Positions 4,935 to 30,240 of a DNA stretch of 64,000 nt are shown one piece after another. Both the position numbers and the translations under genes were made by a program. This DNA comes from a virus (Duplodnaviria; Caudoviricetes): positions 138,895-202,894 of the IMG/VR virus record IMGVR_UViG_3300046787_000508; one strand, 5' to 3'. The notes beneath the pieces were generated by a model. That model was not told where the DNA came from and made no database searches. It saw only the letters and a list, made by a program, of their open reading frames with translations. How positions within the stretch are numbered: the first letter of the stretch is position 1; the number at the start of each line of letters is the position of its first letter.

Positions 4935-6956
4935 ATGGCAGTAGATTTCTTTGAAGAAGGACCAAAACAAAATCAAAAGAGTAGAAGACCTGGTTCAACA
5001 ACACCTATTTTAGATAATTTTTCACGAGATTTAATAAAGTTAGCTGAAGAAGGTAAGATTGACCCGGTTGTGGGAAGAGATAAAGAAGTGAAACGTATTT
5101 CTCAAATCTTATCTCGAAAGAAAAAAAATAATGCGGTAATCGTTGGGGATGCGGGTGTTGGTAAATCGGCGTTAGTTGAGAAGTTAGCCATACAAATCCA
5201 TAAAGGTAATTGTCCAAACAATCTATTAGATAAACGTTTAGTATCGTTGGACCTTACATCATTAGTTGCAGGAACAAAATACCGAGGACAGTTCGAAGAA
5301 CGTATTAAAGCAATTTTAAACGAATTACAAGAGAATCCAAATGTAATTGTTTTTATCGATGAATTACATACCATGGTTGGTGCAGGTAATGCGAGTGGTG
5401 CAATGGATGCCGCTAATATACTAAAACCCGCATTAGCACGTGGTGAAATGCAATGTATCGGTGCAACCACTTTCGATGAGTATAAAAAACATATTGAGAA
5501 GGATAGCGCGCTTGTACGAAGATTTCAAAAGGTTACCTTAAAAGAACCGACATATAGTGAGACAACAGAAATTTTAAATAACTTATCCCCATCATATGAA
5601 GATTACCACAAAGTATCTTACGGTGAGGATGTTATTGACACTATCGTATTATTGTCAGATAGATACATCACAGATAGACAATTTCCAGACAAAGCCATTG
5701 ACATCCTTGATGAATTAGGTTCAGAGAAAAGAGTTTCAACTAAAGTCCCTGAAATAATTGAAGAATTGAAAAAGGAAGTTGAAGTTATTAGAGAAAAGAA
5801 ACTTCAAGTTGTTAAGAGTCAAAATTACGAATTGGCGGCCAAGTTACGTGACGACGAAAAGAAAGTTCAGAAGAAATTAGAAGAAGAAAAAGAAAATTGG
5901 GTTATCTCACAAAGAGATAATAAAACTCCCGTAATTGTTGAGGATGTATACAAAATTGTATCGGAGATGACAGGTGTCCCAATCACTAAATTAGACGTTA
6001 ATGAAACTGAAAAATTACTTGATTTAGAAAATATACTTGGTGAAAGAGTAATCGGTCAAGATGAAGCAGTTTCTATCATCTCAAAATCAATTAGAAGAAG
6101 TCGTGTTGGGATAAAAGATACAAATAGACCAATCGGTTCATTTATATTTTTGGGTTCAACAGGTGTGGGTAAAACTCACTTGGCAAAATCAATTGCGAGT
6201 ACATTGTTTGGTTCTGAGGATAATGTTATACGTGTTGACATGAGTGAATTCATGGAAAAACACAGTGTTTCTCGTTTGATTGGTTCTCCTCCGGGATACG
6301 TTGGTTACGATGAAGGTGGTCAATTAACAGAGAAAGTGAAAAACAATCCATTCTCAGTTATTTTATTTGATGAAATAGAGAAAGCACATAAGGATGTCTT
6401 TAACTTATTATTACAAATCTTAGACGAAGGACATTTAACGGATTCATTCGGTAGAAAAGTAAATTTTACCAACACTTTGATTATTTTAACATCTAACATA
6501 GGTGCCAAGAAAGTAGTTGAATTTGGTGGTGGTGTTGGATTCAACACATTATCTAAGGAGAGTCAGTCTGAACAAGTTAAAAAGACTATTATAGATAAGT
6601 CATTAAAACAACAATTTAGTCCCGAATTTTTAAATCGTATAGACGATATCATCATCTTCAACCCATTGACCGATGATGTTTTAAATAAGATTATCACTAT
6701 CGAACTTAATAAATTAGTTAAACGACTTGCAGAGAAAAAGTACGATATTGTTTTTGATAAAAGTGTGAACGATAAAATCCTTTCAATGAACAAAAATGAA
6801 GGATACGGTGCACGACCTATTAAACGAATCATTCAAAATTTATGTGAAGATTTCTTGAGTGATGAGATTTTAAGAGGTAAAATAAAAGAAGGTAAATTAA
6901 CAAATATTAAGTGTAATAACGATGGTGTATTGTTAATTGGAAAAAAATTATTGTAA
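4935..6956 (+). CDS. clpC: ClpC-type Hsp100 AAA+ ATPase lacking the N-terminal repeat domain
   Basis: Two Walker A motifs (GDAGVGKS, GSTGVGKT), FIDELH, UVR middle domain (QNYELAAKLRD), RIDMSE-like RVDMSE, GARP. Confidence 0.92.
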   Translation: MAVDFFEEGPKQNQKSRRPGSTTPILDNFSRDLIKLAEEGKIDPVVGRDKEVKRISQILSRKKKNNAVIVGDAGVGKSALVEKLAIQIHKGNCPNNLLDKRLVSLDLTSLVAGTKYRGQFEERIKAILNELQENPNVIVFIDELHTMVGAGNASGAMDAANILKPALARGEMQCIGATTFDEYKKHIEKDSALVRRFQKVTLKEPTYSETTEILNNLSPSYEDYHKVSYGEDVIDTIVLLSDRYITDRQFPDKAIDILDELGSEKRVSTKVPEIIEELKKEVEVIREKKLQVVKSQNYELAAKLRDDEKKVQKKLEEEKENWVISQRDNKTPVIVEDVYKIVSEMTGVPITKLDVNETEKLLDLENILGERVIGQDEAVSIISKSIRRSRVGIKDTNRPIGSFIFLGSTGVGKTHLAKSIASTLFGSEDNVIRVDMSEFMEKHSVSRLIGSPPGYVGYDEGGQLTEKVKNNPFSVILFDEIEKAHKDVFNLLLQILDEGHLTDSFGRKVNFTNTLIILTSNIGAKKVVEFGGGVGFNTLSKESQSEQVKKTIIDKSLKQQFSPEFLNRIDDIIIFNPLTDDVLNKIITIELNKLVKRLAEKKYDIVFDKSVNDKILSMNKNEGYGARPIKRIIQNLCEDFLSDEILRGKIKEGKLTNIKCNNDGVLLIGKKLL

Positions 6957-17742: not shown

Positions 17743-17812
17743 GGGCCTGATGTCAACGGCAGACCACCTGATTTGCAATCAGAGTGTTTGGGTTCGATTC
17801 CCACAGTGTCCA
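17743..17812 (+). tRNA. tRNA-Ala(TGC)
   Basis: Loop TTTGCAA; G3:U70 pair; imperfect acceptor stem. Confidence 0.75.
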
Positions 17813-20498: not shown

Positions 20499-20571
20499 GG
20501 GATTGAGGTCAAACGGTTAAGATGTCGCCCTGTCACGGCGCACGGAGCGGGTTCAACTCCCGTCAGTCCCG
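20499..20571 (+). tRNA. tRNA-Asp(GTC)
   Basis: Cloverleaf, loop CTGTCAC. Confidence 0.92.
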
Positions 20572-23186: not shown

Positions 23187-23260
23187 GGTTCCATAGCTCA
23201 ATTGGATAGAGCAACACACTTCTAATGTGTAGGTTTCAGGTTCGACTCCTGATGGAATCA
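23187..23260 (+). tRNA. tRNA-Arg(TCT)
   Basis: Loop CTTCTAA. Confidence 0.92.
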
Positions 23261-23318
23261 CACCGGTGGTAGTTTTGAGGTTGACGAATTCTACATAAAA
23301 AAAATAATTCATCCACTA

Positions 23319-23557: not shown

Positions 23558-23629
23558 GGCCTTGTAGCTCAGTGGTAGAGCAGTTGACTGTTAATCAACT
23601 GGTCGTTGGTTCGAATCCAACCGGGGCCT
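23558..23629 (+). tRNA. tRNA-Asn(GTT)
   Basis: Loop CTGTTAA. Confidence 0.93.
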
Positions 23630-23823
23630 CAAAAAGTTTAACCATATAAGGTTGAATAAGATGACAGACGAAAGTTATCTCTTGAGGGTAAAATGAAAAG
23701 ATTGGTAGAGTGGTACTACGGGGTGACGGCCCAAACGCAGGTTCGATTCCTGTATCGAAGTAATTTGAGAGTAAAGGTAAAAGGTATTAATAGCGGTCTA
23801 AAAACTGGGTTAAACTTTGATAT

Positions 23824-25547: not shown

Positions 25548-25661
25548 CATTATAAAAAAAACAAAAAATTTTTACAAAAGGCTTGTTTTTTAAAAAATAT
25601 TATGTACATTTGTACTCACAACAACAATTAACAACATTATTAACAACAAAATTTTACAACA

Positions 25662-27734
25662 ATGGAATTGACTAAGAACATCGTCGCTCTACAAAAAGGT
25701 CTTGTAGTACCATCTAACGACGGGATGGATAACAGAATTGCAGTTTCAACTGTACAAACTCACTTAATGGAGTGGGGTTATATGTTAGACCAAGACGCTT
25801 TCACAGAATTATCAAAATCAGACTTATCGGTTATCGTTAAATTCAATGACGAAGTAATTTCATATTTGAAAAACGTAATGGGAGGTAAAAGAGATTACCA
25901 ACCACTTTACAAAAACTTCCCTGAAGAAGTTATGTCATTATCCGATTACGAATTATATTTCAACGCCATTGTTCATTATTGGTCAAATGGTAATTGGGAA
26001 CCATCAACTGTTACATACGAGAAACCAATTAAATTTGAGAAAATCAAATATACGTTGATTAAGTTTGCAACACCTGAAAGATTCTCACAAATCTTTACTG
26101 ATTTAGTTTCAATTAACACATCATTATCTCCACAAGATATGTCAATTATTCAATGGTTTGTGAATAGCGGTGAGAAACTTGTTTTCCCAGATGTTATTCC
26201 ATTCAAAGAGAATCTTTGTACATTAGCGTCAATGGGAATTGAAGGTTTACCTGTTAAAACGACAACGGATGTATTAAGAATTGCGGTATCATTATCTGGT
26301 GGGGATATTTCATTACCTAAATTACCATTTAAAGAAGTTAGAGCAAGTCGTTGGACAACTCAAAAAGTTGATAACCCGGCAAGAGAATTGTTTAAATTTA
26401 AAAAGTTCACTCGTAAAGAGAGAAAATACCTTTTAGGTTTATTAGAACAGACAAACTGTGATGCAAGAGAAATGGTTCTTAGAGACCAAAGATGGATTCG
26501 TTTAGGTGAAATTTTACATCCGGGTGAATATAAAACAAAATTCCCTAAATCCGCTGAGGTGTTTAACAAAATCAGAAATGAGAAAGTTAAATCTTGGTAT
26601 GGAATATTGAACGATTCATTCAAGAAAGGATTGGAAGACGGTTTGAAAGTTTTATCACAAAGACCGGGTGAATTCTCACGTAGAATTGATTGGTTAATTA
26701 GAACTAACCCAAACCAATTGGATTTAATCATGTCTTATTTCAATGAGTCCGTTAAAGGAACATCGAATAAAGTATTATTTGAAGTGTATGGTCATTTCGA
26801 AGGTAGATTAGAACCAAAGAATAATCGTTCGGTTATGATTAAAGGAGCAAGAAAACGTACCGAATTACCATCATTACCTGCATTGTCAAACGATACAGTA
26901 GAAATGATTCATTCAAAACTTTTTGAAACTCTTAAAGATAAATTCTCAACATTAGAACCGTTAGGTGATTGTTGGATTGATGAGGAATTGAAAAAGATTC
27001 CATTACCGACAAATATGAGAAGTATGAACTTTTCAACTAAACCAGTTTTACGTGGTCAAAGAACACCGTTGGATAATCCTGACGCTAAAGTAATTAGACC
27101 TTTCGTTCATTGGAATGATAAAACGGGTAATGAAGATTTGGATTTAAGTGTTACCTTTGTTGGGGACTCGAATAATGTACTTTCTTTCAGTAATATGAAG
27201 GTTGGTAATTCGGTTCACTCAGGTGATGTTAGACATAGACAAGGACCTTGTGCTGAGTATATCGATATTGATATTGCCGACGCTAAATCACGTGGATTCA
27301 AATACGCTATTATTGATGTGAGAAACTATAATGGTCGTTCATTGAAATCTGTGGAATCTACATTTGGTATTATGGAAAGAGAATTTCCAGAATCAAATAA
27401 GACTTGGTTACCTGAAACTATGGTCGGTGCACAATCATTGGAATCTGAATCATCTAATACGTTAATCGCGATTGTTGATTTATACACCAAAGAGTACATT
27501 ATGTTGGATATAGATTCTGACGGTGAGGTTACCGCAAGAGGTGACGTTAAGAACACTTTGAAGATGATTGAGCAATATGCTAAACCACCAAAGGTAAGTG
27601 TATATGATTTAGTTCTATTACACGTTGAAGGGAGAGGTAGACAAGTGACATTAGATTCTAATGTTAACACCTACTTCAAATTCGAAGACTTTATGACTTC
27701 GTATGAACAAACAGGAAAATTAATGGGTGTGTAA
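25662..27734 (+). CDS. 690-aa protein: long alpha-helical region plus C-terminal TerD-like beta domain
   Basis: RPGEFSRRIDWLIR; RPFVHWND...EDLDLSV...HSGDVR...AEYIDID (TerD-like); TACATTTG promoter at 25605-25612. Confidence 0.7.
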   Translation: MELTKNIVALQKGLVVPSNDGMDNRIAVSTVQTHLMEWGYMLDQDAFTELSKSDLSVIVKFNDEVISYLKNVMGGKRDYQPLYKNFPEEVMSLSDYELYFNAIVHYWSNGNWEPSTVTYEKPIKFEKIKYTLIKFATPERFSQIFTDLVSINTSLSPQDMSIIQWFVNSGEKLVFPDVIPFKENLCTLASMGIEGLPVKTTTDVLRIAVSLSGGDISLPKLPFKEVRASRWTTQKVDNPARELFKFKKFTRKERKYLLGLLEQTNCDAREMVLRDQRWIRLGEILHPGEYKTKFPKSAEVFNKIRNEKVKSWYGILNDSFKKGLEDGLKVLSQRPGEFSRRIDWLIRTNPNQLDLIMSYFNESVKGTSNKVLFEVYGHFEGRLEPKNNRSVMIKGARKRTELPSLPALSNDTVEMIHSKLFETLKDKFSTLEPLGDCWIDEELKKIPLPTNMRSMNFSTKPVLRGQRTPLDNPDAKVIRPFVHWNDKTGNEDLDLSVTFVGDSNNVLSFSNMKVGNSVHSGDVRHRQGPCAEYIDIDIADAKSRGFKYAIIDVRNYNGRSLKSVESTFGIMEREFPESNKTWLPETMVGAQSLESESSNTLIAIVDLYTKEYIMLDIDSDGEVTARGDVKNTLKMIEQYAKPPKVSVYDLVLLHVEGRGRQVTLDSNVNTYFKFEDFMTSYEQTGKLMGV

Positions 27735-27758
27735 TACCACCCATTATTAAAATATATT

Positions 27759-28408
27759 GTGGCTATGTGTTATGTTACTTCTAAACTTTTAATTGGCTAA
27801 AAACATACATACACTCTTTCCACTTTTTAAAAATTATTGCGGCTATGTGAGATTCCAAAAGGATAACCATTAACCACATTTACTTGAGACGGGATGTTTC
27901 CGTAATGTGGTCTTAGATTAGGTGAAAGTACGGGAACAAAGGTCTTACTTCTAACATACAAATTAAGATAACACGTTAGACACACTTTTTCCGCAAAACT
28001 TATAAACGGCTATACATATTCTTACTTCTATCCAAACTTTTACTTTGACAATAGATTTGTGATTTCCGTTTTTTATTACGTTCTTTGAAAAAATATTTGG
28101 CTATAGATTGTGTTACTTCTATATGGTTAATCTTGGTTCGAATCCAAGTCATACCTGTAACAGGGTAAGATTTTTACACAACTAATCTCCAAATAAATTA
28201 TATTTTAATGGCTATGTGGGCGTGAATTGGTATAATATTTACATATCAACCACGGACTGGTTACTTCTACATCATCTGCGGGGAACTCAGCTTCGCCGCA
28301 ACCATAACAATTAACCAGCACAGTTTCCATTAAAAACTTATATCGGCTATGAATCGAGTTACTTCTAAAAACTATCAATAATGAAAACTCACTCATCCAA
28401 TTTCCGAT
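27759..28408 (+). ncRNA. array of six structured ncRNA-like units with conserved GGCTAT...TTACTTCTA
   Basis: Units 27759-27823, 27838-27995, 28005-28070, 28094-28195, 28206-28332, 28342-28408; each has covarying terminal pairing (GTGG/CCAC, TGCGG/CCGCA, AACGG/CCGTT, TATTTGG/CCAAATA, TAATGG/CCATTA, ATCGG/CCGAT). Confidence 0.75.
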
Positions 28409-28420
28409 TAATTTAAAATG

Positions 28421-28546
28421 AGGGTGGTAGCTCAGTTGGTAGAGCACGTATTCACTGGTTTAATTACCGTTTATATGGCTATATTCACAGTTACTTCTAT
28501 TAGGCTGTTAACCTCGTGGTCGTGAGTTCGAATCTCACCCACCCTC
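28421..28546 (+). ncRNA. tRNA-Asn(GTT) scaffold with 53-nt insertion carrying the seventh GGCTAT...TTACTTCTA motif
   Basis: AGGGTGG/CCACCCT acceptor, perfect D and T arms; CG[28449-28501]AGG-CTGTTAA-CCTCG. Confidence 0.75.
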
Positions 28547-28583
28547 CTATAATAAACAATAAACAACAATTAAAACAACAAAA

Positions 28584-29030
28584 ATGGCAACATCAAAAAC
28601 AACAGATGAAAAAGTTAAAGATTTATTTAACTCAGTACAAGAAAAAAAATTAGCAATTGAAAAGGCAGAAAGACCTTGTTGGTTGACTTCGGGTAATTTT
28701 GGTTACTCAACAAATTCAGCTCACGATAGAATCAATGTTCAAATCGTTAGTGATTATCGCAAAATAGTGGAAATGTACGCATTTCTTATTGATAGAAAAG
28801 AGAAGTCTGAAAAATCTGCAAATGAACTTGGAGTAGATTATAAATTTACTTGGTTAGGATTTACGGTTGACGAATGGAAAAACGATTTTCAAACAAGAGT
28901 TAATCAACTTTCAATTCAAGAAAAACGTAACGAACTTGCAGAAATCGAAGCTCGTTTAAATGCTATTATCTCACCAGATTTAAGAGCTCAAATGGAACTT
29001 GAAGCAATTTCTAAATTGCTTGATAAGTAA
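28584..29030 (+). CDS. hypothetical coiled-coil protein
   Basis: ORF directly after the ncRNA array. Confidence 0.75.
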   Translation: MATSKTTDEKVKDLFNSVQEKKLAIEKAERPCWLTSGNFGYSTNSAHDRINVQIVSDYRKIVEMYAFLIDRKEKSEKSANELGVDYKFTWLGFTVDEWKNDFQTRVNQLSIQEKRNELAEIEARLNAIISPDLRAQMELEAISKLLDK

Positions 29031-29110
29031 GTTTTCTTAGTTTCGTAAAACTAAGTGGTGGAATCGTCGTCAGTAAACTGTCGGCCCCAATAAAAAGGCT
29101 AGAAGGAATT

Positions 29111-29428
29111 CTAGTCTTTTTTGTTTATAGAAGTGTTGTCTTTATATGCGGAATTAACCTCGTATTTTGTAACACCGTGAGTTCTGGCAATATAAGCCTT
29201 TACAGGTTCAATTGCCGATTCAGTGTTATGGTAAGAATAACAATGTGGAACTAAATCTTTTGGTCCACAAATTTTACCTCCACTTTTTGTATTACTAACT
29301 GAACAATTGGCGTGTGATTCGGCCCAAGATAATACTCTTTTGAGTTCTTTACTGTTATGTGGACCTTCCATGATGAAGTTATCCAATACCTTTTTAATTT
29401 GTGATTCAGTTAAAATAATAGTCTTCAT
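29111..29428 (-). CDS. hypothetical protein with IILTESQ N-terminal motif
   Basis: MKTIILTESQIKKVL; TATTTAT upstream. Confidence 0.7.
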   Translation of the reverse strand: MKTIILTESQIKKVLDNFIMEGPHNSKELKRVLSWAESHANCSVSNTKSGGKICGPKDLVPHCYSYHNTESAIEPVKAYIARTHGVTKYEVNSAYKDNTSINKKD

Positions 29429-29487: not shown

Positions 29488-30240
29488 ATGAGAATAGTTT
29501 GTATATCCGACACGCACGGTCTTCATAACATTATGGAGGATTATAACCAATTACCGAAAGGTGATATTCTTATTCATGCGGGTGATTGTACAAACGTTGG
29601 TAAACCTCAAGAAGTGATAAACTTTGTTGAATGGTTTATGAACGTAAAAGGATTTAGTAGTAAGATTTTTATTGCGGGTAATCACGATTTTGCGTTTGAA
29701 AAAAAGAATTTACCTCACCATAGAGGTGACTTCGATTGGTATTGGAATCTAATGAATGAAGAAAATCTAACCCAATCAGATGTTATTTATTTGGAAGACA
29801 ATGAATTCGTTATTGAATCTTCTGAGTTTTCTAAACCCATAAAAATTTACGGGACACCATGGCAACCAGAATTTTATAATTGGGCATTTAACCTACCAAG
29901 ACAAGGAAAAGAACTTGAGGAAAAATGGTCAAAAATTCCTGATGATACTGATATTTTAATTTCACATTCCCCACCTCATGGTTGTCGAGATTTTGTTAAA
30001 GATAGATTTGGACCAACCTCAGTTGGTTGTGAATTATTGAGACATAGGGTTGAACAAATAAAACCAATACTTAACATATTTGGACATATACATGAGGCGT
30101 ATGGATGTGTGTACGTTAAAGACACCGCACATATTAACGCATCAATATGTGATGAAAGATATGTTCCTAAAAATAAACCAATAATAATAGACCTTATTGA
30201 AATAGAAGGTATTTTAACACCAATTTTTATAGATGAGTAA
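29488..30240 (+). CDS. calcineurin-like metallophosphoesterase (MPPED/239FB type)
   Basis: ISDTH, HAGD, IAGNHD, SHSPP, FGHIHE motifs. Confidence 0.9.
   Translation: MRIVCISDTHGLHNIMEDYNQLPKGDILIHAGDCTNVGKPQEVINFVEWFMNVKGFSSKIFIAGNHDFAFEKKNLPHHRGDFDWYWNLMNEENLTQSDVIYLEDNEFVIESSEFSKPIKIYGTPWQPEFYNWAFNLPRQGKELEEKWSKIPDDTDILISHSPPHGCRDFVKDRFGPTSVGCELLRHRVEQIKPILNIFGHIHEAYGCVYVKDTAHINASICDERYVPKNKPIIIDLIEIEGILTPIFIDE

What the first reader, a model, noticed from the sequence alone, without database searches (positions are those of the whole stretch)
28421..28546. tRNA-Asn with a 53-nt insertion in the anticodon stem that carries the array motif
Seen: deleting 28449-28501 restores a perfect cloverleaf (CGAGG-CTGTTAA-CCTCG). 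The insert holds GGCTAT-ATTCACAG-TTACTTCTA, and its ACAG can pair with CTGT of the anticodon loop, giving two exclusive folds. Too short for group I/II introns and no clear bulge-helix-bulge. An intact tRNA-Asn exists at 23558. Inference: tRNA/Y-like chimera, protein-dependent switch or unusual intron, perhaps showing how the array units evolved from tRNAs.
Basis: partly seen in the sequence, partly recalled or inferred. Interest (0 to 1): 0.8.

Follow-up and report, generated by a model that had tools for sequence, protein, structure and literature searches.

The report
tRNA carrying a protein-docking RNA handle
The 53 extra bases inside this giant-phage tRNA-Asn gene are a folded RNA "handle" that also forms the core of a whole family of small RNAs always encoded beside one 700-residue protein in phages and bacteria, so the gene most likely makes a tRNA-shaped partner RNA for that protein (like Y RNAs for Ro60) rather than an ordinary intron-containing tRNA.

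Summary
A tRNA-Asn(GUU)-like gene at 28421-28546 is interrupted after anticodon-stem nt 28 by 53 nt (28449-28501) carrying GGCTAT-N8-TTACTTCTA. It is not an assembly artefact: two other metagenome contigs hold the identical 126 nt, and more than 10 further contigs hold variants.

The insert fits no known intron type. It is the core of an RNA family absent from Rfam: helix P1 (..GG/CC..), CUAU, helix P2 (the N8), UUACUUCUA, AAUUU. Six free-standing copies precede the tRNA. In the tRNA the same core is wired in circularly permuted order, so the tRNA takes the place of the variable "payload".

The family sits next to homologues of the adjacent 690-aa protein (helical domain plus TerD domain) in most of 37 phage loci and at least 8 of 11 bacterial loci from several phyla. 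One Verrucomicrobial locus has a YrlA-like permuted tRNA domain on this handle, followed by the protein gene and RtcB.

Best reading (0.6): an unspliced, tRNA-scaffolded, Y-RNA-like partner of the 690-aa protein. Main rival (0.22): a new protein-dependent tRNA intron. No expression data were available.

The scan has noted comparable TerD or Ro-like loci with tRNA-shaped RNAs in other genomes.

The parts
28421..28448 (+). 5' part of the tRNA body: acceptor 5' strand AGGGTGG, D arm GCTC..GAGC, nt 26, and anticodon-stem nt 27-28 (CG)
   Evidence: Rfam tRNA model alignment. The acceptor stem covaries among relatives: AGGGTGG/CCACCCT, AGGGGTG/CACCCCT, GGGGAGG/CCTCCCC.
28449..28454 (+). Linker TATTCA between tRNA nt 28 and the handle
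   Evidence: Segmentation of 10 embedded modules.
28455..28461 (+). P2 3' strand, CTGGTTT, which pairs with the 8-mer at 28483-28490
   Evidence: Pair table. Covariation on alignment A6: 90.3% of cells paired against 78.4% in shuffles (0 of 500 reach it), slid registers 14-47%, and 3 pairs with changes on both sides. In the window itself 5 of 7 pairs form.
28462..28466 (+). J2, AATTA (family consensus AAUUU), single-stranded
   Evidence: Conserved in all embedded modules and as (A)AUUU/GCUUU before the P1 3' strand in free-standing units.
28467..28478 (+). P1 capped by a loop: CC (28467-68), loop GTTTATAT, GG (28477-78)
   Evidence: CC or CU with GG in 8 of 8 modules. In free-standing units the same GG/CC pair is the inner end of the closing helix.
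28479..28482 (+). J1, CTAT, a conserved single-stranded joint
   Evidence: Invariant CTA(T/C) in phage and bacterial units.
28483..28490 (+). The variable 8-mer ATTCACAG, which is the P2 5' strand (4+1+3 with a bulged middle base)
   Evidence: The alternative pairing ACAGTT/GGCTGT with the anticodon loop appears in the MFE fold but is not conserved.
28491..28499 (+). TTACTTCTA, the most conserved element of the family, single-stranded, joining P2 to the payload
   Evidence: Seven of the nine copies in the 203-kb record lie in this array, all on the + strand. It is kept as TT[AC]CTTCTA next to homologues of 25-89% identity in phages and bacteria.
28500..28501 (+). TT linker before tRNA nt 29
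   Evidence: Absent in L063/L036/L150/L236, where the motif abuts AGG directly.
28502..28546 (+). 3' part of the tRNA body: AGG-CTGTTAA-CCTCG (rest of the anticodon arm, GUU), variable loop TGGTC, T arm GTGAG-TTCGAAT-CTCAC, acceptor 3' strand CCACCCT, discriminator C
   Evidence: Rfam alignment. The T stem covaries among relatives: GTGAG/CTCAC against GTAGG/CCTAC.
27759..28408 (+). Six free-standing units of the same RNA family: A 27759-27823, B 27837-27996, C 28004-28071, D 28094-28195 (T-arm-like payload CTTGG-TTCGAAT-CCAAG), E 28205-28333, F 28342-28408
   Evidence: Closing helices covary: GTGG/CCAC, GCGG/CCGC, ACGG/CCGT, TTTGG/CCAAA, TTAATGG/CCATTAA, ATCGG/CCGAT. Of 66 units, 82% reach a P1+P2 score of 10 or more, against 27% of swap controls.
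25662..27734 (+). Gene of the 690-aa protein (helical N-terminal domain plus TerD-like C-terminal domain), the presumed partner of the handle RNAs
   Evidence: No Pfam hit; phrog_33734. The TerD fold matches at Z 12.6 over residues 474-635. It is related to NF041916 at E 6e-69, below that model's cut-off. The motif array is adjacent in most of 37 phage loci and in at least 8 of 11 bacterial loci.
23558..23630 (+). Intact tRNA-Asn(GUU), which makes the interrupted copy redundant for decoding
   Evidence: ARAGORN, and Rfam at 74.2 bits. L006/L007 also keep both copies.

Best explanation
The gene encodes a chimeric non-coding RNA: a tRNA-Asn body that carries, in the 5' strand of its anticodon stem, the conserved 'handle' of a small-RNA family not present in Rfam. 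The handle is P1 with inner GG/CC, CUAU, P2, UUACUUCUA and AAUUU.

In free-standing members the chain ends lie at P1, and a variable payload sits between the UUACUUCUA motif and the returning P2 strand. In the tRNA the handle is wired in circularly permuted order: P2 3' strand, AAUUA, CC, loop, GG, CUAU, P2 5' strand, UUACUUCUA. The tRNA itself is therefore the payload, and the chain ends are the tRNA's own. (Shown: the architecture, its covariation, and the gene linkage.)

The handle most likely docks the neighbouring 690-aa helical+TerD protein. The tRNA body would supply RNase P/Z processing, stability, and a surface for tRNA-binding enzymes. The RNA would work unspliced, as YrlA-type Y RNAs do with Ro60, probably in tRNA or RNA surveillance or repair during infection. 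(Inferred: the binding, the absence of splicing, and the pathway.)
For: (1) All 10 embedded modules share the element order P2(3')-AAUU(U/A)-C(C/U)-loop-GG-CUA(U/C)-N8-motif.

(2) P2 and P1 covary: 90.3% of cells paired against 78.4% in shuffles (0 of 500 reach it), slid registers 14-47%, and 3 pairs changed on both sides.

(3) The same core closes 66 free-standing units, including GC-rich bacterial units with compensated helices.

(4) The motif array lies beside homologues of the protein in most of 37 phage loci (28-89% identity) and in at least 8 of 11 bacterial loci from Ignavibacteria, Verrucomicrobia, Lentisphaerae, Planctomycetes, Bacteroidota, Gammaproteobacteria and Firmicutes.

(5) tRNA-like payloads occur in three wirings: an open tRNA (order D-motif-T), a permuted tRNA with a closed acceptor (L163 1566-1715; L240), and a T arm only.

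(6) The L240 unit matches Rfam YrlA at 41.9 bits (E 2.9e-8), but only over the tRNA-like positions 23-85. It is followed by the protein gene and RtcB (E 7e-100).

(7) In L137, L141, L135, L166, L153 and L159b the handle replaces the anticodon loop. No single deletion restores a canonical tRNA, and L137 and L141 share one body but differ in the linker.

(8) The chimera, insert included, is 100% identical between the window and L006, while the flanking genes are 85.6% and 79.9% identical.

(9) An intact tRNA-Asn exists in the same genome.

(10) For the N-terminal domain model, the top hit among 48,161 chains is a phage Ro60 (Z 7.0, 240 residues). Two other Ro60 structures rank 6th and 13th. This is suggestive only.
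Against: No expression or processing data could be obtained, so 'unspliced' is inferred.

In three different tRNA species the insert sits at exactly nt 28|29, and its removal restores a perfect 5-bp stem and 7-nt loop: Asn in the window group, Arg-UCU in L154, and Met/Ile-CAU in L159. The Asn anticodon arm is invariant among five variants. That is what a spliced intron would look like.

In the unspliced RNA the split anticodon stem is thermodynamically disfavoured: -27.4 kcal/mol with the cloverleaf enforced against -36.3 for the free MFE. The handle alone is weak at -5.8 kcal/mol.

P2 in the window copy has two U-U mismatches.

Protein-RNA binding rests on gene linkage only. The resemblance to Ro60 lies below the noise bar for helical repeats, and there is no sequence similarity to Ro60.
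Confidence: 0.6

Rival explanations
1. A new kind of protein-dependent tRNA intron. The handle is recognised (for example by the 690-aa protein or a host nuclease), cut out at 28|29, and the halves are sealed by a host RtcB-type ligase. This would give a second, possibly conditionally matured, tRNA-Asn.
For: Removal restores a canonical tRNA exactly in Asn, Arg(UCU) and Met/Ile(CAU) genes, with the insert at the same position, and nt 27-28 complement nt 42-43 in all three (CG/CG, GG/CC, CA/UG). The Asn anticodon arm is invariant. RtcB follows the homologous protein gene in L240, and a Bacteroides control genome has RtcB. In L063/L150/L236 the 8-mer can pair across the 3' junction (CUAAG/CUU|AG, with an A-U to U-A exchange in L236).
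Against: The same module is the terminal scaffold of free-standing RNAs and of permuted tRNA domains, where excision cannot yield a tRNA. At least six embedded types have no restorable anticodon loop. There is no bulge-helix-bulge, no ribozyme or group I match. The 203-kb record, about 60% complete, contains no splicing endonuclease, RtcB or Rnl gene. The insert is as conserved as the exons. An intact tRNA-Asn is already present.
Confidence: 0.22
2. An anticodon-arm decoy. The array, including this chimera, displays anticodon-arm-like hairpins (Asn GUU here; CUUUUAA-type loops in units A and C) on a common scaffold. These would soak up or misdirect host anticodon nucleases or tRNA-modifying enzymes, with or without the 690-aa protein.
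For: Small hairpins with 7-nt anticodon-like loops directly follow the motif in several units: AA-CUUUUAA-UU, CAAA-CUUUUAC-UUUG, AGG-CUGUUAA-CCU, AGA-UUUCUAA-UCU. The motif contains ACUUCUA, which equals nt 31-37 of the phage tRNA-Arg(UCU). The region also holds tRNA, tmRNA and SmpB genes.
Against: Minimal bacterial units and many phage units have no such hairpin. Resemblances of 6-7 nt in an AT-rich genome can arise by chance. No nuclease target is known for these hosts. This reading does not explain the tight linkage to the protein across phyla.
Confidence: 0.1
3. A dead tRNA gene disrupted by a small mobile or repeat element, or an assembly chimera.
For: The insert carries a locally repeated motif, and the genome has an intact tRNA-Asn.
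Against: The sequence is identical in three independent assemblies. It is 100% conserved against 80-86% for the neighbouring genes. There are compensatory changes in the acceptor, T and P2 helices across relatives. The units are not sequence-identical copies; they are structurally conserved RNAs.
Confidence: 0.03

Closest known systems
YrlA/YrlB Y RNAs with Ro60 (Rsr), often in rsr-yrlBA-rtcBA operons (Chen et al. 2014, PMC4201824; bioRxiv 10.1101/312249)
   Same: Several small RNAs are encoded next to one large protein gene. Each has a modular build: a protein-binding stem ('handle') plus a tRNA-like domain with T, D and acceptor arms. In place of the anticodon loop the RNA continues into the handle. 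An RtcB neighbour occurs in one relative (L240). The tRNA-like domain of the L240 unit scores 41.9 bits on the YrlA model. M. smegmatis YrlA is even cut by RNase P and receives CCA.
   Different: The handle is unrelated. The YrlA model matches only positions 23-85, and there is no YrlA hit in the window at E up to 10. The protein is not TROVE/Ro60 and has a TerD domain instead of a vWA domain. In the window the tRNA keeps open ends, a full acceptor stem and an intact anticodon hairpin, so the handle is an internal insertion rather than the RNA's termini.
b7a-tRNA with Band-7 protein and RtcB (Burroughs and Aravind 2016, as cited in 10.1101/312249)
   Same: A tRNA-looking ncRNA is paired genomically with a non-Ro60 protein in RNA-repair contexts.
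   Different: A different protein family. No inserted handle has been described for b7a-tRNA. Not tested here.
Archaeal non-canonical tRNA introns (bulge-helix-bulge, at many positions including the anticodon stem)
   Same: A short insertion (about 50 nt) inside the anticodon stem whose removal restores a cloverleaf. The same position recurs in several tRNA species.
   Different: No bulge-helix-bulge can be drawn. The setting is a phage of bacteria, and no EndA-type endonuclease gene was found. The insert is a conserved structured module that is also used outside tRNAs.
Bacterial and phage group I introns in tRNA genes
   Same: They interrupt bacterial or phage tRNA genes near the anticodon.
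   Different: Group I introns are about 200 nt or longer, have a catalytic core and lie in the anticodon loop. This insert is 53 nt, lies in the stem and has no group I match.

Membership tests
Canonical decoding tRNA-Asn | Acceptor, D and T arms with conserved loop residues | tested here: met
   Rfam tRNA at 45.3 bits (gathering 29), model positions 1-71.
Canonical decoding tRNA-Asn | Uninterrupted 5-bp anticodon stem with a 7-nt loop | tested here: not met
   53 nt lie between nt 28 and 29. With the cloverleaf enforced the fold is 8.9 kcal/mol worse than the MFE. ARAGORN does not call it.
Group I intron in tRNA | Catalytic core (P3-P9), length of about 200 nt or more, position in the anticodon loop | tested here: not met
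   No RF00028 hit in the window at gathering score, nor at E up to 10 in 27600-28700. The same model does find introns in relatives elsewhere. The insert is 53 nt and lies in the stem.
Archaeal/eukaryal protein-spliced tRNA intron | Bulge-helix-bulge at the exon-intron junctions | tested here: not met
   Read from the sequence. The intron 5' end UAUUCAC cannot pair with the exon-2 start AGGC to form the central 4-bp helix, and both junctions lie on the same strand of the stem.
Archaeal/eukaryal protein-spliced tRNA intron | Splicing endonuclease (EndA/Sen) available | tested here: inconclusive
   PF01974 was not found in the 203-kb record. However, the record is about 60% complete and the host genome was not examined.
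YrlA (Rfam RF02553) / Ro60 Y RNA | tRNA-like domain with T, D and acceptor arms | tested here: met
   The window RNA has all three arms. The relative L240 unit matches YrlA model positions 23-85 at E 2.9e-8.
YrlA (Rfam RF02553) / Ro60 Y RNA | Ro60/Rsr-binding stem formed by the RNA's 5' and 3' ends | tested here: not met
   No YrlA or Y_RNA hit at E up to 10 in 27600-28700. In L240, model positions 1-22 and 86-114 are unmatched and the score of 41.9 is below the gathering score of 69.
YrlA (Rfam RF02553) / Ro60 Y RNA | Adjacent TROVE-domain (Ro60/Rsr) gene | tested here: not met
   No TROVE match in the protein or in the whole record. A profile search of the PDB finds no Ro60. The fold resemblance is only weak: Z 5.9-7.0 over 205-240 residues.
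GGCUAU/UUACUUCUA handle RNAs (family defined here) | P1 with inner GG/CC, J1 CUAU, P2, UUACUUCUA, J2 (A)AUUU | tested here: met
   All elements are present at 28455-28499 in permuted order, with covariation.
GGCUAU/UUACUUCUA handle RNAs (family defined here) | Encoded next to a homologue of the helical+TerD protein | tested here: met
   The tRNA lies 687 nt downstream of the 690-aa gene, at the end of that gene's array. The linkage holds across phage and bacterial loci.
GGCUAU/UUACUUCUA handle RNAs (family defined here) | Physical binding of the handle by the protein | not testable with these tools
   No RNA-protein modelling or experimental data are available here.

The most novel reading that the evidence does not exclude
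The handle is a conditional tRNA intron of a third kind, neither self-splicing nor bulge-helix-bulge. The TerD/Ro-like protein would recognise it, and excision plus RtcB sealing would switch a phage tRNA from a stored, nuclease-resistant or inactive chimera into a working decoder. The free-standing units would be the same recognition module used for other cargo.
Probability: 0.15. Interest if true: 0.92.

Novelty: new variant of a known kind. Interest (0 to 1): 0.72.

Why it matters
If correct, it reveals an RNA-protein system that resembles Ro60/Y RNA but uses neither. It has a new structured RNA handle absent from Rfam and a roughly 700-aa helical+TerD protein family with no known function. 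The system is spread across huge phages and at least seven bacterial phyla, and is once coupled to the RNA ligase RtcB.

It shows that a protein handle can be grafted into a complete tRNA, into a circularly permuted tRNA, or onto a bare T arm. This gives a natural series for asking what tRNA-like domains do in such particles.

It also warns annotators that long tRNA hits in phage genomes may be scaffolded ncRNAs rather than intron-containing tRNAs.

The rival reading, a protein-dependent tRNA intron in phages of bacteria, would be a first. It can be tested directly with one small-RNA sequencing experiment.

Tried and rejected

2. A DNA search of the phage collection with 25600-29100 found nothing.

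3. My first idea that the motif is a promoter, or the end of a mobile element, was dropped. The flanks covary as helices, the spacer can be 8, 45 or 98 nt, and the sigma-70-type scan shows no enrichment.

4. An apparent helix between exon-1 end plus insert start (CGUAU) and the flank of GG (AUAUG), seen in MFE folds, was set aside in favour of the permuted P1/P2 model. That model holds across all types.

5. The direct repeat TATTCAC (insert start and 8-mer) in the window is not kept in L063/L036/L150, so it was treated as chance.

6. No exact complement of TTACTTCTA exists anywhere in the 203-kb record, so no trans target within the phage was found.

7. The pattern scan GGTAGAGCA-N25-55-TTACTTCTA in viral contigs returned mostly coding-sequence chance hits and only one new variant, L236.

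8. PADLOC gave no hit for the protein. No papers mention SCO0854 or MXAN_6230. Literature searches for phage tRNA introns in the anticodon stem, or for TerD with Y RNAs, found nothing relevant.

9. RtcB, Rnl1, Rnl2, EndA and TROVE were not found in the own record, which is about 60% complete. The Rnl1 search rang in no control genome and is uninformative.

10. Foldseek against the PDB found only the TerD domain. The Ro60 resemblance appears only with VIA-align, at Z 5.5-7.0.

Full report
**Observation.** The window is the last 64 kb of a 203-kb IMG/VR phage record that is about 60% complete. It contains a large tRNA array, a tmRNA and an SmpB gene.

At 28421-28546 the Rfam tRNA model scores 45.3 bits, with 66 nt where 13 model positions are expected. 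ARAGORN does not call the gene. Reading the sequence, the acceptor stem (AGGGTGG/CCACCCT), D arm and T arm are canonical. Anticodon-stem nt 27-28 (CG) are separated from AGG-CTGTTAA-CCTCG by 53 nt (28449-28501). Only this deletion register restores a 5-bp stem. A deletion scan with ARAGORN returns Asn(GUU) as the dominant call.

The insert holds GGCTAT-ATTCACAG-TTACTTCTA. This pattern occurs 5 times in the window against 0.15 expected by chance, and only in 27761-28499 of the whole record. Two further copies have spacers of 98 and 45 nt. An intact tRNA-Asn(GUU) lies at 23558.

The same 126 nt occur in two other contigs from different samples (L006, L007), so the gene is not an assembly chimera.

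**The free-standing units.** The six units upstream of the tRNA (27759-28408) are each closed by a helix whose inner pair is the GG of GGCTAT with a CC that follows TTT. The outer pairs covary: GTGG/CCAC, GCGG/CCGC, ACGG/CCGT, TTTGG/CCAAA, TTAATGG/CCATTAA, ATCGG/CCGAT.

The variable 8-mer pairs, usually as 4+1+3 with a bulged middle base, with the segment just before TTTCC. Each unit is therefore:
- P1 (5' strand)
- CUAU
- P2 (5' strand)
- UUACUUCUA
- payload
- P2 (3' strand)
- (A)AUUU
- P1 (3' strand)

Over 66 units from phage and bacterial loci, 82% reach a combined P1+P2 score of 10 or more. Only 27% do so when the flank and 8-mer are swapped between units.

**What the insert is.** All ten distinct embedded modules I found share one order of elements: P2(3')-AAUU(U/A)-C(C/U)-loop of 8-10 nt-GG-CUA(U/C)-8-mer-motif. 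These are the window type, L063/L139, L036/L136, L150, L236, L135, L137, L141/L230, L166 and L153.

This is the free-standing core with its connectivity circularly permuted. P1 is capped by a loop, and the place of the payload is taken by the tRNA, whose own ends are the chain ends.

On an alignment of eight modules, 90.3% of pair cells are standard pairs. Shuffles give 78.4% (0 of 500 reach the observed value) and slid registers give 14-47%. Three pairs change on both sides. Examples of P2 are UGUC-A-GAG with CUCGAU in L141 and AGUUCGAG with CUCGGUU in L135.

In the window the elements are:
- linker 28449-54
- P2(3') 28455-61
- AATTA 28462-66
- CC 28467-68
- loop 28469-76
- GG 28477-78
- CTAT 28479-82
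- 8-mer 28483-90
- motif 28491-99
- TT 28500-01

The window's own P2 is imperfect, with 5 of 7 pairs.

Relatives instead show other local pairings, such as CUAAG/CUU|AG in L063 and L150. I therefore treat it as lineage-specific or chance.

**Linkage to a protein.** The 690-aa ORF upstream (25662-27734) has no Pfam family. A model with mean pLDDT 80.8 shows a helical N-terminal part and a TerD-fold C-terminal domain, which matches 2qz7 at Z 12.6 over residues 474-635. AlphaFold-DB clusters named 'TerD family protein' match the full length. One cluster named after the ZorC EH domain matches residues 1-451. NCBIfam NF041916 (MXAN_6230/SCO0854 family) matches at E 6e-69, below its cut-off.

Thirty-seven viral contigs encode homologues at 28-89% identity. 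In most of them a TT[AC]CTTCTA array lies directly beside the gene. It is usually downstream, but upstream in L163/L164.

Eleven bacterial contigs encode homologues at 25-47% identity. At least eight of them have GGCTAY-N7-9-TT[AC]CTTCTA units within a few hundred bases of the gene. These come from Ignavibacteria, Verrucomicrobia, Lentisphaerae, Planctomycetes, Saprospiraceae, Lysobacter and Paenibacillus. Two Bacilli MAGs show the motif alone.

In GC-rich Lysobacter and in Paenibacillus the helices are fully compensated, while CUAU, UUCCUUCUA and GCUU stay fixed.

Rfam has no family for these units.

**tRNA-like payloads and the Y RNA parallel.** Payloads take three forms:
- a complete open tRNA with the handle inside (order D arm-motif-T arm), as in the window;
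- a circularly permuted tRNA with a closed acceptor stem (order motif-T arm-acceptor hairpin-D arm), in L163 1566-1715 and L240 2230-2360;
- a T arm only, as in window unit D.

The L240 unit matches Rfam YrlA at 41.9 bits (E 2.9e-8), but only over the tRNA-like model positions 23-85. The Ro60-binding ends of that model are replaced by the GGCUAU/UUCCUUCU handle. In that Verrucomicrobial locus the protein gene is followed, with overlap, by RtcB at E 7e-100. This is the gene order of rsr-yrlBA-rtcBA operons (PMC4201824; 10.1101/312249).

The protein is not Ro60 by sequence. However, for the N-terminal domain model (pLDDT 83.7) the best of 48,161 chains is a phage Ro60 (9l5y, Z 7.0, 240 residues). 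Rsr (2nvo, Z 6.2, 237 residues) ranks 6th and Xenopus Ro60 (1yvp, Z 5.9, 205 residues) ranks 13th. These values lie below the tool's stated noise bar for helical repeats, so I count them as suggestive only.

**Spliced or not?**

In favour of splicing:
- In three tRNA species the insert lies at exactly 28|29, and its removal restores a perfect anticodon arm. These are Asn in the window group, Arg-UCU in L154 (two tandem copies) and Met/Ile-CAU in L159.
- nt 27-28 complement nt 42-43 in each.
- The Asn anticodon arm is invariant in five variants.

Against splicing:
- At least six other embedded types carry the handle in place of the anticodon loop, and no single deletion restores a canonical tRNA. 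These are L135, L137, L141, L166, L153 and L159b.
- L137 and L141 share one body but differ in the linker after the motif.
- The module also forms the termini of free-standing and permuted RNAs, where excision makes no sense.
- There is no bulge-helix-bulge, no ribozyme match and no group I match.
- The record holds no endonuclease or RNA ligase gene, although it is incomplete.
- The whole chimera, including the 53 nt, is 100% identical between the window and L006, whereas the flanking genes are 85.6% and 79.9% identical.
- The genome already has an intact tRNA-Asn.

Thermodynamics do not favour the split cloverleaf: -27.4 against -36.3 kcal/mol. The handle alone is weak at -5.8 kcal/mol. This suggests that a protein holds the functional fold.

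**Conclusion.** It is shown that the insert is a copy of a conserved, covarying RNA module that is genomically coupled to one protein family across phages and bacteria. It is also shown that this module is combined with tRNA-like domains in several wirings.

It is inferred that the module docks the 690-aa protein and that the window RNA acts unspliced as a tRNA-scaffolded, Y-RNA-like particle in tRNA or RNA surveillance or repair. I put this reading at 0.6, a protein-dependent intron at 0.22, a decoy role at 0.1, and a pseudogene or artefact at 0.03.

Earlier notes of this scan describe related loci in other genomes: a TerD protein with Y-like RNAs and RtcB, handle-like arms inside giant-virus tRNAs, and tagged tRNA scaffolds. 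I used these as leads and re-tested the RtcB and YrlA links on loci fetched here.

Noticed in passing
window 27847-27944 (unit B) and 28216-28260 (unit E): Two units carry long structured inserts (98 and 45 nt) in the position of the 8-mer. The 98-nt insert is conserved in many relatives (L008, L010, L036, L063). Its fold and role were not analysed.
   Followed up: no
window 28094-28195 (unit D): The payload holds a T-arm look-alike (CTTGG-TTCGAAT-CCAAG) followed by a second hairpin. The stem covaries in relatives (TATAGG/CCTATA in L036, CTCAGG/CCTGA in L063).
   Followed up: partly
window 23187-23261 compared with the motif copies: TTACTTCTA contains ACTTCTA, identical to nt 31-37 (last stem base plus anticodon loop) of the phage's own tRNA-Arg(UCU). 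A tRNA-Arg(UCU) gene directly follows the array or the protein gene in L159 and L163, and the embedded tRNA in L154 is Arg(UCU). This may be chance.
   Followed up: partly
L240 2230-6098 (Verrucomicrobiales MAG): A handle RNA with a YrlA-like permuted tRNA domain, then a second minimal unit, then the TerD-type protein gene, then an overlapping RtcB gene. This is a Ro60-less look-alike of the rsr-yrlBA-rtcBA operon.
   Followed up: partly
L163 1566-1715: In a phage whose protein is only 30% identical, one unit's payload is a circularly permuted tRNA: T arm GGAGG/CCTCC, closed acceptor GGGGTG/CACCCC, D arm, and anticodon stem GAAGT/ACTTT.
   Followed up: partly
L135 6781-7073: A GOLLD RNA (RF02032, 210 bits, cut by the locus end) lies about 2 kb downstream of the array in a related phage.
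   Followed up: no
L143, L145, L146, L148, L157 at 6720-6932: A group I intron (RF00028, 68.8 bits) lies about 2 kb downstream of the array in five related contigs. The interrupted gene was not identified.
   Followed up: no
window 28584-29030: A 148-aa ORF (phrog_2574, unknown function) follows the array or tRNA in all phage relatives examined. The first + strand terminator-like site after the 690-aa gene is at 29092-29121, so the protein gene, the RNA array and this ORF may form one transcription unit.
   Followed up: partly
window 17743-17812 and 20499-20571: Two tRNA-model hits (30 and 50 bits) that ARAGORN does not call. Not examined.
   Followed up: no
window 29488-30240: A calcineurin-like metallophosphoesterase (PF00149, E 1.4e-17) lies two genes downstream. 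This fold serves as the end-healing phosphatase domain in bacterial Pnkp-type RNA repair enzymes (from general knowledge, not tested).
   Followed up: no
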